A stretch of 4,941 nucleotides of DNA from a virus (lineage: Duplodnaviria > Heunggongvirae > Uroviricota > Caudoviricetes): IMG/VR virus record IMGVR_UViG_2734482780_000003; one strand, written 5' to 3'. Shown here in pieces: positions 1 to 4,941 of this stretch. The notes under the pieces were generated by a model. It made no database searches. It was not told where the DNA came from and worked only from the letters and a program-made list of their open reading frames with translations. Made by a program: the position numbers and the translations under genes. The number at the start of each line of letters is the position of its first letter. The stretch's first letter is position 1.

Positions 1-260
1 AATTTCCCTTTGCATACCAGGGCAAAACCTTTCCAGCCGATATACACCGTCAGGACAGCGCCACGAACCGGCAGCCCGACCTGCCCGTCGGCATCGTTCA
101 GTTCAATATCAAGCTGGTCAGCCTCAAAGCCCCGGTTATCCGTCAGGGTCATGCTCATCAGACGGTCGCTGATATTGCCGGTAATATCCCTGCTGTCGAG
201 CATCAGCATGTAATCCGGCGTCAGCGTACTGCCTGCATCAAATGTCAGCGCATCCAGCAT
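1..260 (-). CDS. D: Phage tail protein D (P2 gpD-like), N-terminal part only; the gene continues beyond the window start
   Basis: ATG at 260..258 opens a minus-strand frame with no stop down to position 1, translating MLDALTFDAGSTLTPDYMLMLDSRDITGNISDRLMSMTLTDNRGFEADQLDIELNDADGQVGLPVRGAVLTVYIGWKGF..., which I recognise as the gpD N-terminus. The start overlaps the U stop (TAATG). Position after U matches P2 order T-U-D. Absent from the ORF track because it has no in-window stop. Confidence 0.8.
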   Translation of the reverse strand, partial: MLDALTFDAGSTLTPDYMLMLDSRDITGNISDRLMSMTLTDNRGFEADQLDIELNDADGQVGLPVRGAVLTVYIGWKGFALVCKGK

Positions 261-739
261 TATCCCGCCCCCGTCATACCCGTGAATTTAGTCGCCATAC
301 TGCCAGCCTTACCGATGAGCGATTCCGCCTGTTTACCGATATCGCCATAAAGCGCGACCAGTGATTCATCAACGCGGGTGAGCGACAACGTAAAATCAAT
401 TTTCCGGGGTGTGCCGTCTGCAAAGAAAATACTCCCTGTTTCACTCACCCTGCTGATGACATACATGCCGTAAATCATGCCGGTGCCATCCAGCAACGGC
501 CACGCCCGGCCTTCCTCTGCCATCAGCCTGAGCGTGGTCATCGTCAGCTTCCCGCCGGTCAGTTCGGGATAAAGCACGCCGGCAAGCGTCATGTTTTCCT
601 CACCCACACCGAGAAACTGAAAGGCATCCCGTTTACCGATACGGGAATTTGACGGCCAGCGATAATCTGATTCGCGCTGCATGGTCTGGTGTGGCAGCGT
701 CTGGCGCATAAAAACAAACATACCTAACGCGAGCATCAT
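260..739 (-). CDS. U: Phage tail protein U (P2 gpU-like), 159 aa
   Basis: Complete ORF from ATG 739..737 to TAA 262..260. A GGAGGTGA Shine-Dalgarno (reverse complement of 744..751) sits about 6 nt upstream of the ATG. Product MMLALGMFVFMRQTLPHQ...TGMTGAG matches my recollection of gpU. Lies immediately downstream of the T stop, as in P2. Confidence 0.88.
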   Translation of the reverse strand: MMLALGMFVFMRQTLPHQTMQRESDYRWPSNSRIGKRDAFQFLGVGEENMTLAGVLYPELTGGKLTMTTLRLMAEEGRAWPLLDGTGMIYGMYVISRVSETGSIFFADGTPRKIDFTLSLTRVDESLVALYGDIGKQAESLIGKAGSMATKFTGMTGAG

Positions 740-753
740 TTTTCGTCACCTCC

Positions 754-2083
754 TTAACCGTCATGCATCATGCTGGCACGGGCGCGCGCACGTTTATCCC
801 GCTCGTATTTTTCGAGCGCATCCTGTAACTGGCGGTCAAGCTGTGTCCCCGGCGCAGTACCACCCGTCAGGCTGATGTGATATTCGTTTTTACTCTGGTC
901 CACATAAGAGCGGCCAGCCGGTGCCGTGACCGGCTGATAAGCCTGATAGCCTGCATAAGAGCTGGTCGCCGGAATATAACCACCGGTGCCATACGTGGCG
1001 GCATTAGTCCTTGCGGCGGTCTGGTCAAGTGTGTCTGACTCTTTGTTGATGACACCGAGTTTTTCCAGTACCCAGTCAATACCACTGCGCAGTTTGTTGA
1101 ACGCATTAAGCGGCAGCATCAACGCGTCAGCCAGTGCCTGCCCGAACATGACACCCGTGTCACGGCAACGGTTCAGGGTGTCCTGGGTGGCTTTGACCGG
1201 GGCAATCAGGTTTTTAAACCACTGCCACGCGGCCTGTAACTTTTCGCCCAGCCAGTCAAACACCGGCTTAAGTGGCGTGAACAGTTCCCCCACCGGCGCA
1301 AATGCCGCTTTCAGCCCTTCCACCACACCGCCAAAGAATGCGCTGACAGGCTCCCAGTATTTACGAATAAGCAACGCCCCGGCGACAATGGCGGCCACCA
1401 CGGCAACAACCGGCCAGCTAATCGCCCCGATGGCCGTCATAACAGCACTGCCAACCGTCGTGAAGATTGCCCCCATTGCGCCTGCTGCCGCGATGATGGC
1501 ATTGATGCCGGTGATAACCGGCCAGGCTACGAGGCCAATGGCACCGATGACGCCAGTCAGCGCCAGTGCGCCACCGACAATTAGGCCAATGGTTGACGCC
1601 AGTGATTTGTTTTTCTGGATCCAGCCGTCGAGTTTTAACACATACTTTGTGGCCGTCTGTGTGAGCTTACGCAGTGCGCCTTCCTGCTGGTCAAACAGGT
1701 CAGTCCCCACCGCTTCATAAGCGGACTGAAACTCCTTAAAGTCACCGCCGAGGTTATCCTGCATGATTTTAACCAGCTCTTCCGTTTTACCGTCCGAGGC
1801 TTTCAGCGTGGCGGTCAGCTTATCCAGTTTTCCGCTTGCTGCCGCTGCCAGTAAAACGTTCGCTGATTTCAGGGCTTCCTCACCAAAAATGGTTTTAAGG
1901 TATTCCCCCTTCTGAGACGTTCCCAGCTTGTGTTTATCAAAGCTGGCCTGAATCTCTTTCAGAATGGTGAACAACGGGCGCATATTTCCCTTTTTGTCCG
2001 AGGTTTTAACGCCAAGCTCTTTGAGTGCATCCCATGCTTTCCCTGTCGGAGCCTGTAATCGGGTGACAACGGCACTGCTACCC
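754..2083 (-). pseudogene. T: Tail tape measure protein T (P2 gpT-like), 5'-truncated: C-terminal portion only, frame intact to the native stop
   Basis: Minus-strand frame is open from 2094 to the TAA at 756..754; the first ATG is at 1983..1981, giving the 409-aa track ORF. The product has tape-measure character (central Gly/Ala-rich hydrophobic segment, ending ...EKYERDKRARARASMMHDG) and is followed by U and D. There is no N-terminal half: upstream the sequence switches abruptly to the 5' end of J. Confidence 0.75.
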
Positions 2084-2188
2084 GTAAAGGGAAATCAGTG
2101 TCGCCTTGCGTTCAGCGAGAATGCTTTCAAAGTCCAGCTCCTCGACCACATCCGGTGCGGGTAGCTGGTTCAGGTCGATAATTGGCAT
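2078..2188 (-). pseudogene. J: Baseplate assembly protein J (P2 gpJ-like) remnant: first 35 codons, then one non-native Gly codon and a TAG stop
   Basis: ATG 2188..2186, four nt after the W stop, translates MPIIDLNQLPAPDVVEELDFESILAERKATLISLYG*. I recall this as the gpJ N-terminus, which in P2 continues ...SLYP.... Here homology ends after the Tyr codon (2086..2084) and a TAG follows at 2080..2078. Confidence 0.75.
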
Positions 2189-2192
2189 GGTT

Positions 2193-2540
2193 TCAACTCA
2201 CAGGGATGGTTAATGAAAGTGGCTGGCCGGTGTCGTTGTGCTGGCCGGTTAACGTGGCCGTCATTCGCCCGTCAAAACTGCGCTCAGTGGTGACGGATGA
2301 CAGGGTGACGCGGGGTTCCCATTTCAGCACCGCCATGTAACAGGCGACCTTAATCTGCAACTCAAGCGCCGGGGTCTGCGGCTGGTCAATCATTGATGCC
2401 AGCAACGAGCCGTAATCACGACGCATCACCCGTGAGCCGACCGGTGTGCGCAGGATATCGCCGATACTCTGGCTGATATGCTCAAGGTCAGTGACAGTCA
2501 GGCCATCACTGCGATTCATTCCGAGATAACGCGCTGTCAT
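2193..2540 (-). CDS. W: Baseplate wedge protein W (P2 gpW-like), 115 aa
   Basis: Complete ORF from ATG 2540..2538 to TGA 2195..2193. The start overlaps the V stop (ATGA). Product MTARYLGMNRSDGLTVTDLEHISQSIGDILRTPVGSRVMRRDYGSLLASMIDQ... matches my recollection of gpW. Synteny V-W-J. Confidence 0.9.
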   Translation of the reverse strand: MTARYLGMNRSDGLTVTDLEHISQSIGDILRTPVGSRVMRRDYGSLLASMIDQPQTPALELQIKVACYMAVLKWEPRVTLSSVTTERSFDGRMTATLTGQHNDTGQPLSLTIPVS

Positions 2541-3172
2541 AAAGGACTCCCGGTTGTGCCGCCGCTGTCGCCGGGGTGTTTATGGGTATGCAGTACCTTA
2601 CCGTTTGATGAGAGTTCACCGCCGGTGTGTTCAATGTTGCCGCGCATCGTCCCGCCCTTCTGCACTTCCAGCGTGCCGGTAATCAGCCTGTTGGTGCAGA
2701 CCACCTCCGGGGTGTCCAGGGTGACGCGGGTTGATGCTTTCACCATGAACACCGGCACCGTGGCAGTAACAGAATCAGAAGCCGTCACGCTGGCCGTTTT
2801 AATTCCGCTTACCGTGAGTGCACTGGTTTCGGGTTCATATTCAATCACCGCCCCGTCAGGGAAACGGATATGCAGGGCATCCGCCGACACAGACGGCGAG
2901 GGGTTATCGCCGGAATAAATCCCCGGCAGAACGAACGCCGTGTCGAGTTCACCACCCACGGCCAGAATCAGCACCTGTTCCCCCACGGAAGGTGCCCACC
3001 ATGTGCGCGAACGCCCGGCACGATGGGTCAGCCACTGAAGCCAGTCGGTGCACATGCCGCCGGTCTGCACGCGGCAGCGACCGGCGTTAAGGTCGGTTTC
3101 GACGATAATGCCGGTGCGAATCATGTTGCGCAGTGCGCGCGCGAGTTCCTGAATATTTGCGAGAGTGTTCAT
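2537..3172 (-). CDS. V: Baseplate spike / central hub protein V (P2 gpV-like), 211 aa
   Basis: ATG at 3172..3170 (MNTLANIQELARALRNMIRTGIIVETDLNAGRCRVQTGG...) to TGA 2539..2537. The track ORF starts 6 codons earlier at a TTG (3190..3188), which I reject in favour of the ATG. Product matches my recollection of gpV. Confidence 0.88.
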   Translation of the reverse strand: MNTLANIQELARALRNMIRTGIIVETDLNAGRCRVQTGGMCTDWLQWLTHRAGRSRTWWAPSVGEQVLILAVGGELDTAFVLPGIYSGDNPSPSVSADALHIRFPDGAVIEYEPETSALTVSGIKTASVTASDSVTATVPVFMVKASTRVTLDTPEVVCTNRLITGTLEVQKGGTMRGNIEHTGGELSSNGKVLHTHKHPGDSGGTTGSPL

Positions 3173-3182
3173 GCATGTGAGA

Positions 3183-3240
3183 TTGCACAATATATAAAAG
3201 TTATGCTATCTGGATTCATTTGTAGAACTACCAGACAACA
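3183..3240 (-). promoter_or_regulatory. Candidate Ogr/Delta-activated late promoter for V (P_V-like): TGT...ACA partial dyad plus an AT-rich -10-like element
   Basis: On the minus strand upstream of the V ATG: TGTTGTCTGGTAGTTCTACA (3240..3221) contains TGT-N11-ACA (or TGT-N14-ACA), followed about 30-40 nt downstream by TTTTATATATT (3199..3189). P2 late promoters carry a TGT-N12-ACA activator site near -55 and P2 has a late promoter in front of V. The spacing here is not an exact match to the consensus as I recall it. Confidence 0.4.
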
Positions 3241-3255
3241 TTCAAGGAGAGCGTA

Positions 3256-4041
3256 ATGGTCAGCTATAATGTGACTAATGTGTGGGGGCTAATCGTTTTT
3301 TTCCTTTGTAGCTTTGCAGTATTAGCATTTTTTAGCTTTGGTAAAAGTAACCTTATGAGGCTTATTGCACATTATTTCAATTTTGGATATTCAGACAAAA
3401 AATTAAAAAGACTTGACCGCGAGTGGCGCGACATTCAACTATTTAAAATAATTAACGGAATCAATGTATCAGGCATTGAAAATGTGAGAATGATACAGCA
3501 GGGACTGATTGATGGAAAACTAAAAACATCGTATTTTTTCCTTACTCGCATCTGGGGTGACATAACAAAACCACCACACATAATTAAAACAATAATTGTA
3601 ATTCTGGCCAGTATTATTTATATTCTCTTCGCATGTTATATACACAACAAACAATCCGCTATAGTAAGAGATGCCATAGGCATACCATATAAAAATATGA
3701 TGTACTATGTTTATAGTGACAAAGTTCTTTTATCCTTCAAAAATAAAGCAGTTGAATTTAATAAAACTTATAGCCTTGCCGATTGCAAGAGACTGCAAAA
3801 CGTATTTATAAAAGACACACTTCCTGAAATCGCCTGCAATAAGCTCTTACAGCTAAACGAGGAGGACTCCGAATGGTTAAGCCAGGAGATTAAAGATAAT
3901 AACAGTCACAAAAAAGCATTATTAATACTATCCCTCGTCTATTTCACTTCAGGTCTGGTTATATTCCTGTCATATACAAAATTCTTTTACGCCAATAAGA
4001 AGGTTTTAGAATACAAAGCATCAAATAAAAATCACTCATAA
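3256..4041 (+). CDS. Hypothetical AT-rich membrane protein (261 aa, three predicted transmembrane helices); cargo gene at the S/V junction, the position occupied by orf30 in P2
   Basis: ORF from ATG 3256 to TAA 4039..4041. AAGGAG Shine-Dalgarno at 3244..3249 with 6-nt spacing. Followed 6 nt downstream by a 13-bp perfect hairpin. Composition is markedly AT-rich (roughly one-third GC by eye, against more than half in the flanking phage genes) with many ATA/AAA/AAT codons. Hydrophobic segments at residues ~9-29 (VWGLIVFFLCSFAVLAFFSFG), ~108-130 (HIIKTIIVILASIIYILFACYIH) and ~221-241 (ALLILSLVYFTSGLVIFLSYT). Orientation is opposite to the surrounding phage operons. No recognisable homology from memory. 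Confidence 0.7.
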   Translation: MVSYNVTNVWGLIVFFLCSFAVLAFFSFGKSNLMRLIAHYFNFGYSDKKLKRLDREWRDIQLFKIINGINVSGIENVRMIQQGLIDGKLKTSYFFLTRIWGDITKPPHIIKTIIVILASIIYILFACYIHNKQSAIVRDAIGIPYKNMMYYVYSDKVLLSFKNKAVEFNKTYSLADCKRLQNVFIKDTLPEIACNKLLQLNEEDSEWLSQEIKDNNSHKKALLILSLVYFTSGLVIFLSYTKFFYANKKVLEYKASNKNHS

Positions 4042-4046
4042 ACCTC

Positions 4047-4083
4047 TAAACATTGAGCGACCAGCATGGCCGCTCAATGTTTA
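4047..4083. terminator. Bidirectional intrinsic terminator hairpin between the convergent cargo gene (+) and S (-)
   Basis: Perfect inverted repeat TAAACATTGAGCG (4047..4059) / CGCTCAATGTTTA (4071..4083) around an 11-nt loop (4060..4070), with possible extra CCA/TGG pairing inside the loop. It lies 6 nt after the cargo stop and about 30 nt after the S stop. T/A-rich runs follow on both strands (TTAATT on plus; AGAGGTTTATGAGTGATTTTTATTTG on minus). Confidence 0.7.
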
Positions 4084-4112
4084 ATTGCGCATCAGCCTCT
4101 GCCTGGATAAAA

Positions 4113-4565
4113 CTAACGCTCAAGGTGAGCCAGGATAATCTCCTCAATCATCTGCACATCCTCACCGGTAAAGCCGAGCAGAGGACGCGCCGGATAATCA
4201 ATTTTCTTACCGTCTTTCCGGGTTTCTTCCGACAGACCGAACTGATGCACACTGGCGATTTTCGGCGACTTCCCGCCGTAAAATTCCATTGATGCCTGCT
4301 CCGGGCTGGCGCGGATATGCAAAAAACGACTGGTGATAAGTTTCGCAAACATTTTTCGCTTAACACGACCAGTCTTTTTTCTGGCGCTCTGCTGCTGGCG
4401 TGGCGCGTAGGGTGTGCCGTCCGGGGCTTTCTGAGCCATCACCCGACGCTGCTGACTCTGCCGCAGACGTTTCGCCAGTTCGGCGCTCAGTCGCCGACGC
4501 CCTGACGGTGACAGCGATTCAATCAGTCCGGTCAGCCGGTCTTCAAAACGCTTAAACTCATTCAT
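4113..4565 (-). CDS. S: Tail completion protein S (P2 gpS-like), 150 aa
   Basis: Complete ORF from ATG 4565..4563 to TAG 4115..4113. The start lies 8 nt inside the R stop region (R TGA at 4560..4558). Product MNEFKRFEDRLTGLIESLSPSGRRRLSAELAKRLRQSQQRRVMAQKAPDGTPYAPRQQQSARKK... matches my recollection of gpS. Confidence 0.88.
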   Translation of the reverse strand: MNEFKRFEDRLTGLIESLSPSGRRRLSAELAKRLRQSQQRRVMAQKAPDGTPYAPRQQQSARKKTGRVKRKMFAKLITSRFLHIRASPEQASMEFYGGKSPKIASVHQFGLSEETRKDGKKIDYPARPLLGFTGEDVQMIEEIILAHLER

Positions 4566-4941
4566 CCCACTTGCTCACCAGTTCGCCATTGATATAAAGC
4601 TCCACCGGGCGGGTGACCGGCTCCGGCGGCGTGGGTTCCGGGATATTCTTCACATGCAGTGCGCCGTCCACCTCACTGACCAGCGTGCGCTCGGTCAGCA
4701 TCAGGCTGATGCTGATATCAAAGCTGCTGTCATTGTTGATGTCTGCATAAAACGTGAAGCCCTTTTTCTGGCCTTCGTCAGTGGTCATGATGTCGGGCTG
4801 ATTTTCCCGCAGCCACGCCAGCACCGGCACGATGAGCAGGTCAAAATCACCGGTAAAGTCGGTCACAATCACATTGAGCGTGTAACGCTTTTCGAATGAC
4901 AGCGACGTCGCCAGTGTGGAGGCAATACTCCCGTTACACGC
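4558..4941 (-). CDS. R: Tail completion protein R (P2 gpR-like), C-terminal part; the 5' end lies beyond the window end
   Basis: Minus-strand frame is open from the window end to TGA 4560..4558, translating ACNGSIASTLATSLSFEKRYTLNVIVTDFTGDFDLLIVPVLAWLRENQPDIMTTDEGQKKGFTFYADINNDS...SKWDE. The track start at 4872 is an internal GTG; the true start is upstream of the window. Matches my recollection of gpR and the R-S order. Confidence 0.82.
   Translation of the reverse strand, partial: ACNGSIASTLATSLSFEKRYTLNVIVTDFTGDFDLLIVPVLAWLRENQPDIMTTDEGQKKGFTFYADINNDSSFDISISLMLTERTLVSEVDGALHVKNIPEPTPPEPVTRPVELYINGELVSKWDE

What the first reader, a model, noticed from the sequence alone, without database searches (positions are those of the whole stretch)
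3256..4041. Orphan AT-rich membrane-protein gene in the S/V variable locus of a P2-family prophage
A 261-codon ORF is inserted in opposite orientation between S and V. It has its own strong Shine-Dalgarno (AAGGAG, 3244..3249) and hairpin terminator, foreign-looking base composition and codon usage, and three predicted transmembrane helices separating two soluble segments of about 80-90 residues. I recognise no conserved motif. Variable loci in P2-like phages are known to carry anti-phage and superinfection-exclusion cargo, so a small membrane protein expressed from a prophage is a plausible abortive-infection or exclusion effector. That functional assignment is inference only; it may simply be the uncharacterised P2 orf30 or a homologue.
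Basis: partly seen in the sequence, partly recalled or inferred. Interest (0 to 1): 0.8.

Follow-up and report, generated by a model that had tools for sequence, protein, structure and literature searches.

The report
Phage P2 orf30 membrane-protein gene
This is orf30 of phage P2, annotated in the P2 record as nonessential and never given a function; it encodes a three-pass inner-membrane protein, and it belongs to a small family that sits at the same spot in P2-like prophages, where a role in keeping out other phages is plausible but untested.

Summary
A 261-codon ORF (3256..4041, +) with an AAGGAG ribosome-binding site lies antisense between tail genes S and V. Its GC is 33% against 54-59% in the flanks. 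It has three hydrophobic helices and a strong hairpin downstream.

It is P2 orf30 (98.8% nucleotide identity, 98% protein identity; 'Orf30, nonessential' in AF063097).

It is not an orphan. An exhaustive HMMER search finds about 44 cluster representatives. Most relatives whose genomic context I could read, at only 20-29% identity, sit at the same S/V junction, antisense and AT-rich, in P2-like prophages of Escherichia, Yersinia, Serratia and Enterobacter. Several are intact inside decayed prophage remnants.

Every aligned member has two cysteines in the second loop, which argues for a periplasmic disulfide domain; the most conserved motif is cytoplasmic. The family is probably a remote branch of Pfam DUF6216. 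The DUF6216 gene at the same locus in BL21 is H-NS-bound and silenced, according to a preprint.

There is no Pfam, PADLOC, PDB or fold match, so function remains inferred. My best guess, at about 0.4, is a superinfection-exclusion protein of the P22 SieA kind.

The parts
3256..4041 (+). orf30 coding sequence (261 codons plus stop); P2 Orf30 orthologue
   Evidence: ORF list. 98.8% nucleotide identity to AF063097 9439..10224, annotated 'Orf30, nonessential'. 98% protein identity. dN/dS 0.46.
3244..3249 (+). Shine-Dalgarno sequence AAGGAG, 6 nt upstream of the ATG
   Evidence: Read directly from the sequence.
3283..3339 (+). Transmembrane helix 1 (residues about 10-28); the short uncharged N-terminus is predicted periplasmic
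   Evidence: Kyte-Doolittle maximum 2.41. AlphaFold2 helix 7-28.
3340..3579 (+). Loop 1 (residues 29-108), predicted cytoplasmic helical domain. It carries the family's most conserved motif: D59-x-Q61-L-[FY]-[RK]-x3-G68-[IV]-N-V, then a nearly invariant D (N76 in this protein), then G87.
   Evidence: 14 K/R against 7 D/E. Lowest column entropy of all regions, 2.02 bits. Alignment A3. Helices 30-40, 48-67, 74-86.
3580..3645 (+). Transmembrane helix 2 (residues about 109-130)
   Evidence: Kyte-Doolittle maximum 2.63. AlphaFold2 helix 109-134.
3646..3909 (+). Loop 2 (residues 131-218), predicted periplasmic alpha/beta domain: a four-stranded sheet (141-173) plus two helices, with the Cys177/Cys194 pair
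   Evidence: Each of the 25 aligned family members tested (close E. coli alleles collapsed to one) has exactly two Cys in this loop, at columns 177 or 174 and at 194. Secondary structure. Both Cys align with those of the BL21 DUF6216 clade.
3910..3978 (+). Transmembrane helix 3 (residues about 219-241)
   Evidence: Kyte-Doolittle maximum 2.25. Part of AlphaFold2 helix 202-260.
3979..4038 (+). Basic C-terminal tail (residues 242-261), predicted cytoplasmic; N247 and K254 are conserved
   Evidence: 5 K/R against 1 D/E. Conservation.
4047..4083 (.). Strong hairpin between the convergent orf30 and S genes. P2 annotates it as the rho-independent terminator of the O operon; it probably works in both directions.
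   Evidence: -22.4 kcal/mol, z = -5.25. P2 feature 9397..9433 maps to these coordinates.
3214..3241 (-). Ogr/activator binding site of the late promoter pV, transferred from the P2 annotation. It lies 2 nt before the Shine-Dalgarno sequence and 14 nt before the ATG of orf30, inside the 83-bp divergent V/orf30 control region (3173..3255).
   Evidence: P2 misc_feature 10239..10266 maps to these coordinates at 98.8% identity.
3173..4112 (.). The replaceable S/V cassette: everything between the S stop codon and the V start codon. The 'empty' allele has an unrelated spacer of about 70 bp instead.
   Evidence: Comparison with empty loci L006, L007, L023 and L049. Allele survey of 80 loci.
2537..3172 (-). 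Flanking gene V (baseplate spike)
   Evidence: Pfam Phage_base_V, Phage_spike and Apex. P2 V coordinates.
4113..4565 (-). Flanking gene S (tail completion)
   Evidence: Pfam Phage_tail_S, E = 4.9e-44. P2 annotation.

Best explanation
SHOWN. The feature is the orf30 gene of a P2-type prophage. It is a real, intact, single-gene accessory cassette that fills the space between the S stop codon and the V start codon, antisense to the late tail operons.

Its product is a three-pass membrane protein. The likely topology is a short periplasmic N-terminus, an 80-residue cytoplasmic helical domain, an 88-residue periplasmic alpha/beta domain held by a conserved Cys-Cys pair, and a basic cytoplasmic tail.

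It belongs to a small family confined to Enterobacterales. Most members whose context I could read sit at this same S/V position in P2-like prophages, always AT-rich. The family is split into allelic classes only 20-29% identical to Orf30, and it is probably a remote branch of DUF6216.

INFERRED (probability about 0.4). The protein is made from the prophage, not during lytic growth. It probably comes from a weak promoter that overlaps pV and is damped by H-NS. It would then act at the inner membrane as a superinfection-exclusion protein.

In that model the variable periplasmic domain meets the genome-delivery apparatus of an incoming phage (tail tip, tape measure or ejection proteins) or the host membrane factor that the phage needs. 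The conserved cytoplasmic domain anchors or organises the block, and the incoming DNA does not reach the cytoplasm. This is how P22 SieA works, and it shows a similar pattern of allelic diversity.
For: Identity: 98.8% nucleotide and 98% protein identity to P2 orf30, at the same locus.

Real gene: dN/dS is 0.46, and 0.27-0.30 in the soluble loops. All 18 full-length copies are intact. It is present in 464 of 5426 complete E. coli genomes.

Topology: three hydrophobic helices, and K/R enrichment in loop 1 and the C-tail. Exactly two Cys in loop 2 in each of the 25 members tested. AlphaFold2 model with pLDDT 84 and pTM 0.71.

Family: 44 cluster representatives among 1.84 billion proteins, about 25 of them full length at 250-270 aa.

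Synteny: relatives at 20-29% identity lie antisense between V and S in Serratia, Yersinia, Enterobacter and IMG/VR P2-like phages. In those same loci V is about 66-84% and R about 58-80% identical to the reference prophage proteins.

Retention in remnants: the homologue is intact while neighbouring V, S and R are reduced to fragments in S. odorifera, S. rubidaea, Enterobacter CC120223-11 and L097. The window itself is a deleted prophage.

Not needed for the virion: P2 annotates it 'nonessential'. 49 of 80 loci with a nearly identical S lack any gene here.

Defence context: one relative sits beside the portal gene, in the classical old/tin hotspot. Tandem paralogues occur.

Regulation: the DUF6216 gene at the same locus in BL21 is an H-NS ChIP peak and is up-regulated in a delta-hns delta-stpA strain (locus). 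The Ogr site of pV lies 14 nt upstream of orf30's start codon, so any orf30 promoter must overlap pV.

Analogy: P22 SieA is a three-helix inner-membrane protein. It has three allelic types below 30% identity, its best-conserved motif is cytoplasmic, and it is encoded antisense next to the genes of the ejection proteins it blocks.
Against: - There is no experimental phenotype for Orf30 in any paper I could search.
- PADLOC has no hit.
- It is not homologous to P22 SieA (hhalign probability 0.3%) or to Kunado/YmfE (0.1%).
- No promoter above chance was found, so expression in a lysogen is unproven.
- If H-NS silences the gene, its normal activity may be negligible.
- The periplasmic loop shows no excess of non-synonymous change among E. 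coli alleles (0.27, against 0.30 for the cytoplasmic loop). There is therefore no arms-race signal at short range.
- P2 lysogens have been studied for decades, and in the papers I could search the reported exclusion phenotypes belong to old, tin and fun, never to orf30.
Confidence: 0.4

Rival explanations
1. Abortive-infection membrane effector. Orf30 stays inert in the inner membrane until an infection cue reaches its conserved cytoplasmic domain. It then oligomerises and depolarises or permeabilises the membrane, killing the cell before the phage completes its cycle.
For: It is a single small multi-pass membrane protein with a conserved 80-residue cytoplasmic domain that could act as a sensor. 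It is prophage cargo. A relative lies in the old/tin hotspot. H-NS silencing of the BL21 sister gene would fit a toxic product.
Against: No PADLOC or Pfam effector match. No partner or sensor gene in the cassette. The conserved periplasmic disulfide domain has no obvious role in a cytoplasm-triggered pore. Toxicity has not been reported, and the gene is stably carried by 8.6% of complete E. coli genomes.
Confidence: 0.15
2. Non-defence lysogenic-conversion or fitness factor. This would be an envelope protein that benefits the lysogen in some other way, such as stress or bile tolerance, colonisation, envelope remodelling, or resistance to colicins, tailocins or type VI attack. Phage infection would not be involved.
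For: The gene is kept intact in decayed prophage remnants of several genera. It is under purifying selection. It has an envelope location with a periplasmic domain. No defence-database hit. P2 variable loci also carry non-defence cargo such as cytolethal distending toxin and partition systems.
Against: The family is found almost only inside P2-like prophages and at a fixed place among tail genes. The deep allelic classes at one locus resemble conflict genes more than housekeeping fitness factors. No similarity to any known envelope-stress or virulence family.
Confidence: 0.25
3. Lytic-cycle accessory function. Orf30 would help P2's own infection, for example by conditioning the inner membrane for genome entry or exit, timing lysis, or preventing abortive re-adsorption and re-injection into the already infected cell.
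For: It is embedded between tail-completion and baseplate genes, close to the lysis cassette. It shares an 83-bp control region with pV.
Against: Annotated nonessential. Absent from 49 of 80 phages with a nearly identical S gene. Antisense to both late operons, with the Ogr site placed so that it cannot activate orf30. Retained in remnants that can no longer make virions.
Confidence: 0.1
4. Selfish or neutral AT-rich passenger with no current function, kept only by linkage and H-NS silencing.
For: The sister gene is H-NS-bound and silent. No promoter was found. Constraint is weak compared with S and V (dN/dS 0.46 against 0.02 and 0.20).
Against: The soluble loops have dN/dS 0.27-0.30, and nearly all copies are intact. 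Length, three-helix architecture, the Cys pair and the cytoplasmic motif are conserved down to about 20% identity. The gene is intact in remnants whose neighbours are fragmented.
Confidence: 0.03

Closest known systems
Bacteriophage P2 Orf30 (AAD03281.1; AF063097 9439..10224; PHROG phrog_2407)
   Same: 98% protein and 98.8% nucleotide identity. Same position between S and V, same antisense orientation, same flanking Ogr site and hairpin. This is that gene.
   Different: Five amino-acid differences, lying in or just after the second membrane helix. Here the gene sits in a prophage that has lost J' to T'.
Pfam PF19723 DUF6216, as in E. coli BL21(DE3) WP_000115390.1
   Same: The BL21 gene occupies the same S/V locus in a P2-like remnant. 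It is antisense, has GC 0.33, is 267-268 aa long and has three hydrophobic helices. Profile-profile alignment of the two clades covers the periplasmic domain, TM3 and the tail, with both Cys aligned (probability 71.6%, E = 3.5e-5). Ten of 28 Orf30-family members give sub-threshold DUF6216 hits (best 8.7e-7).
   Different: The window protein itself has no Pfam hit. All hits from its relatives fall below the 27.3-bit gathering score. The BL21 clade has a much shorter loop 1 and lacks the D-x-Q-L-F-R...G-I-N-V motif. DUF6216 has no known function either.
P22 SieA superinfection-exclusion protein
   Same: A prophage-encoded inner-membrane protein with three predicted membrane helices. It has several allelic types below 30% identity at one locus, and its best-conserved motif is on the cytoplasmic side. 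It is encoded antisense next to virion genes.
   Different: No detectable sequence relationship (hhalign probability 0.3%). SieA is 162-164 aa and has no large periplasmic disulfide domain. SieA's block of DNA injection is demonstrated; Orf30's is not.
Kunado (YmfE) of prophage e14
   Same: An AT-rich, H-NS-silenced prophage gene for a multi-pass membrane protein, reported to block T5-like phages after adsorption.
   Different: No homology (hhalign probability 0.1%). Different prophage and locus.
P2 accessory defence genes old, tin and fun(Z)
   Same: They are nonessential, AT-rich cargo in variable loci of the same phage, expressed from the prophage.
   Different: They lie in different loci (between A and Q; between G and FI). 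Old is a nuclease/ATPase, and none of the three is described as a membrane protein in the papers I read. Each has a reported exclusion phenotype, and Orf30 has none.

Membership tests
P2 Orf30 orthologue group (phrog_2407) | High sequence identity over the full length to P2 Orf30 | tested here: met
   98% protein and 98.8% nucleotide identity, 100% coverage. phrog_2407 E = 1.1e-148 over residues 1-261.
P2 Orf30 orthologue group (phrog_2407) | Location between S and V of a P2-type genome, on the strand opposite the late genes | tested here: met
   V at 2537..3172 (-), orf30 at 3256..4041 (+), S at 4113..4565 (-).
Pfam PF19723 DUF6216 | Whole-protein score at or above the gathering threshold (27.3 bits) | tested here: not met
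   The window protein has no Pfam hit at E <= 0.1. The relatives rescanned individually reach at most 24.3 bits.
Pfam PF19723 DUF6216 | Remote homology shown by profile-profile comparison with bona fide members | tested here: inconclusive
   hhalign of A3 against A4: probability 71.6%, E = 3.5e-5, 115 columns, Cys pair aligned. Local hmmsearch scores are only 7-27 bits. Ten of 28 relatives give sub-threshold hits. Same locus, orientation, length and three-helix plan in BL21.
Superinfection-exclusion inner-membrane proteins (P22 SieA type) | Sequence homology to SieA | tested here: not met
   hhalign probability 0.3%.
Superinfection-exclusion inner-membrane proteins (P22 SieA type) | Integral inner-membrane protein encoded by a prophage | tested here: met
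   By prediction only: three hydrophobic helices, positive-inside charge distribution, conserved periplasmic Cys pair. Prophage context.
Superinfection-exclusion inner-membrane proteins (P22 SieA type) | Expressed from the prophage, and blocks genome entry of superinfecting phage without blocking adsorption | not testable with these tools
   Needs plating, adsorption, K+ efflux and DNA-entry assays. No published data found.
Known or candidate anti-phage defence systems (PADLOC-DB v2) | Match to any defence-protein model | tested here: not met
   No families at E <= 1 for Orf30. None for the BL21 DUF6216 protein or the two other S/V cargo proteins.
Kunado / YmfE | Sequence homology | tested here: not met
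   hhalign probability 0.1%.
Moron / accessory cassette of a temperate phage | Dispensable; present or absent between otherwise near-identical phages; deviant base composition | tested here: met
   'Nonessential'. 49 empty, 23 orf30 and 7 other-cargo alleles, plus one ambiguous locus, among 80 loci with S at 99-100% identity. GC 0.33 against 0.55-0.59.
Moron / accessory cassette of a temperate phage | Own promoter and terminator that allow expression from the repressed prophage | tested here: inconclusive
   A Shine-Dalgarno sequence is present. The hairpin is shared with the S operon. No promoter above chance.

The most novel reading that the evidence does not exclude
The Orf30/DUF6216-like proteins are a previously unrecognised class of inner-membrane superinfection-exclusion proteins, carried at a third, position-locked defence locus (S/V) of P2-like prophages. 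Ancient allelic classes are kept by diversifying selection. Each class would block genome delivery by a different set of incoming phages through its periplasmic disulfide domain, and the host keeps the gene under H-NS control even after the rest of the prophage has decayed.
Probability: 0.3. Interest if true: 0.6.

Novelty: already known. Interest (0 to 1): 0.4.

Why it matters
The gene itself is not new. It is annotated in the P2 genome record, and RefSeq calls it 'hypothetical protein' in all the E. coli records listed, out of 464 complete genomes that carry it.

What this analysis adds is a frame for testing it:
- It has a family with a conserved architecture and motif.
- It has a probable topology, with a periplasmic disulfide domain.
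- It keeps a fixed address among the tail genes across several genera of Enterobacterales.
- It shows signs of selection and of retention after prophage decay.
- It is linked to DUF6216 and to H-NS silencing.

The two other variable loci of P2 (old/tin and Z/fun) have each yielded anti-phage systems. The S/V locus was not treated in the hotspot papers I read. If Orf30-type proteins prove to exclude phages, that would give a third P2 hotspot and a function for DUF6216. It would also show that lab strains such as BL21 carry a silent copy. If they do not, the family is still an example of a prophage gene that hosts keep for their own use.

Tried and rejected
Sequence searches
- Pfam, NCBIfam and PADLOC on Orf30 gave nothing meaningful.
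- PDB sequence profiles gave only noise, E >= 0.039.

Fold searches (model pLDDT 84)
- Foldseek against PDB: E >= 0.09, TM <= 0.2.
- Foldseek against BFVD: E >= 0.05. I treat all of these as generic topology.
- The afdb50 library was not available.

Specific candidates
- Homology to P22 SieA was rejected.
- Homology to Kunado/YmfE was rejected.
- Homology to the 357-aa alternative S/V cargo was rejected.

Promoter, RNA and other signals
- The built-in scan and my own weight-matrix scan found no promoter above chance. The best score was 6.35, and 86 of 49,060 positions in the window reach 6.
- Rfam has no hit in the window.

Scans that did not run or found nothing
- The first genome-contig scan with the family alignment found nothing, because its patterns were too specific.
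- Alignments A3 and A6 were too divergent for a pattern scan.

Literature
- Searches for orf30 with P2 found only passing mentions. One of them gives the length of P2 ORF30 as 261 bp, whereas the ORF is 261 codons (PMC6823313).
- A paper on H-NS and a P2-like Yersinia phage had nothing on this locus.
- I considered Ogr-dependent late expression and rejected it. The Ogr site is 14 nt from the ATG, so it cannot sit at about -55 of an orf30 promoter.
Full report
1. WHAT IS IN THE SEQUENCE

The window holds late genes of a P2-type prophage on the minus strand: U (260..739), the C-terminal half of T (754..1983), W (2193..2540), V (2537..3172), S (4113..4565) and part of R (4558..4872). Pfam confirms all of them except the T fragment, which I identified by DNA identity to gpT of phage Wphi.

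One ORF of 261 codons lies between V and S on the plus strand, at 3256..4041. AAGGAG sits at 3244..3249, six bases before the ATG.

Its GC content is 0.33 (GC3 0.34), against 0.54-0.59 (GC3 0.59-0.67) in the neighbouring genes.

A hairpin at 4047..4083 folds at -22.4 kcal/mol, z = -5.25.

A hydropathy scan gives three membrane-spanning segments at about residues 10-28, 109-130 and 219-241.

2. IDENTITY

The 922 bases from the V start to the S stop are 98.8% identical to bacteriophage P2 (AF063097 9368..10289). In that record the ORF is annotated 'orf30, Orf30, nonessential'. The proteins are 98% identical.

The P2 annotation transfers two further features to the window:
- The activator (Ogr) binding site of the late promoter pV falls at 3214..3241. 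That is 14 nt from the orf30 start codon, on the other strand.
- The hairpin at 4047..4083 is annotated as the rho-independent terminator of the O operon, the operon that ends with S.

The hairpin is thus shared by two convergent transcription units and is not orf30's private terminator. It lacks a canonical T-run, and the terminator scan did not call it.

PHROGs places the protein in phrog_2407, 'unknown function'. Pfam and PADLOC return nothing.

The gene is present in 464 of 5426 complete E. coli genomes, and it is annotated 'hypothetical protein' in every record listed.

3. IT IS A REAL GENE UNDER SELECTION

I compared 15 distinct alleles from 18 IMG/VR loci that carry full-length, ungapped orf30, S and V.
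- orf30 has dS 0.128 and dN/dS 0.46.
- The two soluble loops have 0.30 and 0.27.
- The membrane helices have higher ratios: about 1.1 (TM1), 0.56 (TM2) and 1.9 (TM3).
- In the same loci S has 0.02 and V has 0.20.

One caveat applies. The loci were chosen for near-identity of S, which depresses S's dN.

All 18 copies are uninterrupted. The synonymous divergence of orf30 is similar to that of its flanks. Within E. coli, then, the gene has travelled with its neighbours under moderate purifying selection.

4. IT IS NOT AN ORPHAN

The word-indexed search found only five clusters, the most distant at 39% identity, from Enterobacter. The exhaustive HMMER search of 1.84 billion cluster representatives found 44 proteins at E <= 1e-3. 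About 25 of them are full length, 250-270 aa.

An alignment of 28 members (A3) shows a shared plan:
- three hydrophobic helices in the same places;
- a conserved loop-1 motif D-x-Q-L-[FY]-[RK]-x3-G-[IV]-N-V-x4-D-A ... G (D59, Q61, G68, position 76 (D in most members, N in this protein), G87);
- an invariant Cys194 and Ile212;
- conserved N247 and K254 in the tail.

I collapsed the close E. coli alleles to one sequence. Each of the remaining 25 members has exactly two cysteines in loop 2, at column 177 (or 174 in three members) and at column 194.

A conserved cysteine pair in one loop, together with the basic loop 1 (14 K/R against 7 D/E) and basic C-tail (5 against 1), argues that loop 2 is periplasmic and disulfide-bonded. 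Loop 1 and the tail would then be cytoplasmic.

Loop 1 is the best-conserved region across the family (mean column entropy 2.02 bits, against 2.50 for loop 2 and about 2.75 for TM2 and TM3).

With this alignment AlphaFold2 gives a confident model (pLDDT 84, pTM 0.71). The five-relative alignment (six sequences with the query) had given pLDDT 71. The model has a helical cytoplasmic domain, a four-stranded sheet plus two helices in loop 2, and one long helix that runs through TM3 into the cytoplasm.

5. THE FAMILY HAS A FIXED ADDRESS

I looked up or scanned for the genomic context of distant members.
- In Serratia nevei and S. ureilytica, homologues at 22-25% identity lie between V and S, antisense. 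They overlap the 3' end of S by about 20-30 nt.
- P0026 (about 21% identity) has the same placement in three genome assemblies.
- All 12 IMG/VR loci recovered with the A5 sub-alignment have the gene between V and S, antisense.
- So do prophages of Yersinia frederiksenii and an unnamed Enterobacteriaceae bacterium.

In these loci V is about 66-84%, J 68-82% and R 58-80% identical to the reference prophage proteins (EC261, whose R-to-W DNA is identical to the window's). The Orf30 homologue is only 23-29% identical. With dN/dS only about twice that of V, uniform divergence cannot explain this gap. I infer old allelic classes that are exchanged as cassettes at a fixed site.

Every member examined has GC 0.32-0.38, whether the flanks are at 0.50 or 0.61. 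The AT-richness is therefore a stable property of the family and not a mark of recent import.

Exceptions to the address exist:
- P0038 lies just past the portal gene, which is the classical old/tin hotspot.
- P0016 is on short metagenomic contigs with no clear P2-like gene context.
- The Enterobacter 39% relative lies next to non-phage genes at a contig end.
- Locus L097 carries two tandem paralogues.

6. THE S/V LOCUS IS MULTI-ALLELIC

I surveyed 80 IMG/VR loci whose S protein is 99-100% identical to the window's:
- 49 have an 'empty' spacer of about 70 bp;
- 23 have orf30;
- 5 have an unrelated antisense 357-aa protein with two membrane helices;
- 2 have an unrelated antisense 268/278-aa soluble protein;
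- 1 is ambiguous.

The alternative cargo is also AT-rich (GC about 0.35) and has no Pfam or PADLOC match.

The empty spacer shares no sequence with the orf30 cassette between the S stop and the V ATG. The whole interval 3173..4112, including the pV upstream region, is what is exchanged.

The literature already lists this as one of three variable regions of P2-like phages (PMC3091744). Phage R18C carries a different 741-bp ORF here (PMC6823313).

The recent hotspot papers examine only the old/tin and Z/fun loci, plus a tail/cI locus (PMC9122126, PMC9519451 and bioRxiv 10.1101/2024.10.15.618418).

7. LINK TO DUF6216 AND TO H-NS

Ten of the 28 family members give sub-threshold hits to Pfam DUF6216 (best E = 8.7e-7). 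The members I rescanned individually are below the 27.3-bit cut-off, and the window protein gives no hit at all.

In E. coli BL21(DE3), the P2-like remnant that carries retron Eco1 has a 'DUF6216 family protein' (WP_000115390.1) at its S/V junction. That gene is antisense and overlaps the end of S. Its Pfam E-value is 1.5e-11. This allele is in 111 of 5426 E. coli genomes.

A profile of that clade (A4) aligns with the Orf30 family profile over 115 columns: periplasmic domain, TM3 and tail. The probability is 71.6%, E = 3.5e-5, and both cysteines are in register. Plain HMM scores are weak, at 7-27 bits.

I regard remote homology as probable but not proven. Formal Pfam membership is not met.

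A 2026 preprint (10.64898/2026.09.05.749240) reports that this BL21 DUF6216 gene is one of three H-NS ChIP-seq peaks in the prophage. It is transcriptionally up-regulated in a delta-hns delta-stpA strain, alongside the retron defence genes. By analogy, the 0.9-kb, 33%-GC orf30 cassette is a likely H-NS target. That step is inference.

8. RETENTION IN DECAYED PROPHAGES

In Serratia odorifera the homologue is intact (250 aa), while V survives as a 104-aa fragment, S as 79 aa and R as two small pieces.

The same pattern appears in three other places:
- S. rubidaea, where S is reduced to a 49-aa fragment and the other late genes are lost or fragmentary;
- Enterobacter sp. CC120223-11;
- locus L097.

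One Enterobacter MAG copy looks disrupted.

The window itself comes from a deleted prophage (see section 12). Repeated survival of this one gene suggests that it serves the host cell and not the virion.

9. EXPRESSION SIGNALS

Neither the built-in scan nor my own weight-matrix scan finds a sigma-70 promoter above chance in the 200 bases upstream.

The Ogr site ends 2 nt before the Shine-Dalgarno sequence. Any orf30 promoter must therefore overlap the pV control region or lie inside V. The Ogr site cannot serve orf30, because it would sit far too close to the coding sequence to lie at the usual upstream activator position, about -55 (the -55 figure is from my own knowledge of P2 late promoters).

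I infer that orf30 is transcribed, if at all, when pV is off, that is in the lysogen. Late transcription from pV and from the convergent O operon would then interfere with it. This is untested.

10. WHAT IT PROBABLY DOES

Nothing links the protein to a known biochemical activity:
- The PDB profile search gives only noise.
- Foldseek gives nothing below E = 0.05.

The claudin/TARP-like flavour (a membrane helix bundle carrying a small disulfide-bonded extracellular sheet) is a matter of topology, not of membership.

The best functional analogue is P22 SieA. It is a three-helix inner-membrane protein of 162-164 aa with three allelic types below 30% identical. Its most conserved motif is cytoplasmic, and it blocks DNA injection by acting on the ejection-protein conduit (PMC10883804). 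Its gene lies antisense directly after ejection gene 16. There is no sequence relationship. The newly described e14 exclusion protein Kunado/YmfE is also unrelated.

On balance I rank the readings as follows:
- envelope-level superinfection exclusion, about 0.4;
- a non-defence benefit to the lysogen, about 0.25;
- an abortive-infection membrane effector, about 0.15;
- a lytic-cycle accessory role, about 0.1;
- no function, about 0.03.

Against the defence reading: there is no phenotype in the papers I could search, no defence-database hit, and no excess of amino-acid change in the periplasmic loop among close alleles.

11. NOVELTY AND VERDICT

Novelty class: already known. I set interest at 0.4.

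The gene is not a discovery. The analysis does turn an 'orphan' into a defined family, with a fixed locus, a probable topology and signs of host retention, and it ties the family to a silenced sister gene in a standard lab strain. Together these make a long-ignored third variable locus of P2 directly testable.

12. SEEN IN PASSING

Window 1..2086 is 99.5% identical to the T-U-D region of phage Wphi. Window 2084..4936 is 100% identical to the R-S-orf30-V-W-J' stretch of an intact P2-like prophage in E. coli EC261.

The junction at 2084..2086 joins the first ~35 codons of J, out of frame, to the middle of T. It removes J through the 5' half of T, which takes out baseplate, fibre, sheath and tube genes. 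No complete E. coli genome in the collection has this junction. It is either a genuine deletion in a defective prophage or an assembly chimera.

Noticed in passing
window 2084..2188, with the junction at 2084..2086: The prophage is deleted or chimeric. The first ~35 codons of J (2084..2188, -) are joined out of frame to the middle of T, so J' through the 5' half of T is missing (baseplate J and I, fibre H and G, Z/fun, sheath, tube, E). Window 1..2086 is 99.5% identical to Wphi T-U-D. Window 2084..4936 is 100% identical to the EC261 prophage. No complete E. coli genome shows this junction in one piece.
   Followed up: partly
L020, L026, L037, L040, L073 (between S and V): An alternative S/V cargo: an antisense, AT-rich (GC 0.35) gene for a 357-aa protein with a large N-terminal soluble domain and two C-terminal membrane helices. 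It has no Pfam or PADLOC match and is unrelated to Orf30.
   Followed up: partly
L027, L036 (between S and V): Another alternative S/V cargo: an antisense, AT-rich gene for a 268/278-aa soluble protein with no Pfam or PADLOC match. It contains an R-N-I-L-T-H stretch that resembles an Rx4H HEPN-type motif. That resemblance comes from my own reading and was not tested.
   Followed up: no
L097 5001..5771 and 5900..6658: Two tandem paralogues of the Orf30 family lie next to V in a truncated P2-like remnant. The second matches the family profile with hhalign probability 100%.
   Followed up: partly
L090 1341..2135: A family member (P0038, faint DUF6216 hit) lies just beyond the portal gene Q. That is the classical old/tin defence hotspot and not the S/V locus.
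   Followed up: partly
L087/L088, L089, L114: Decayed P2-like remnants in Serratia odorifera, S. rubidaea and Enterobacter sp. CC120223-11 keep an intact Orf30-family gene, while flanking late genes (S and R, and in two of the three also V) are reduced to fragments.
   Followed up: partly
L006, L007, L023, L049 (about 70 bp between S and V) compared with window 3173..4112: The 'empty' S/V allele has a GC-rich spacer with its own small hairpin, and it shares no sequence with the orf30 cassette. Phages with and without orf30 therefore differ in the whole region upstream of V, including the stretch where P2 has its pV activator site.
   Followed up: partly
L085 5779..5801; L086 5776..5804; L083 45115..45173: In Serratia and BL21 the family gene overlaps the 3' end of the convergent S gene by about 23-59 nt. 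In P2 and in this window the two genes are separated by 71 nt that hold the hairpin.
   Followed up: no
L099-L112 compared with the window: In phages that carry the A5-clade allele, S is only 48-56% identical to the reference prophage's S (99-100% identical to the window's), whereas R, V and J are 60-84% identical. The divergent block may therefore extend into S.
   Followed up: no
window 2537..3190: The mechanical ORF list starts V at a TTG at 3190. The P2 annotation starts V at the ATG at 3172, and it places the pV transcription start at that same coordinate.
   Followed up: no
PMC6823313 (phage R18C paper): The paper describes P2 ORF30 as '261-bp-long'. The ORF is 261 codons (786 bp). R18C carries a different 741-bp ORF at this locus.
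   Followed up: no
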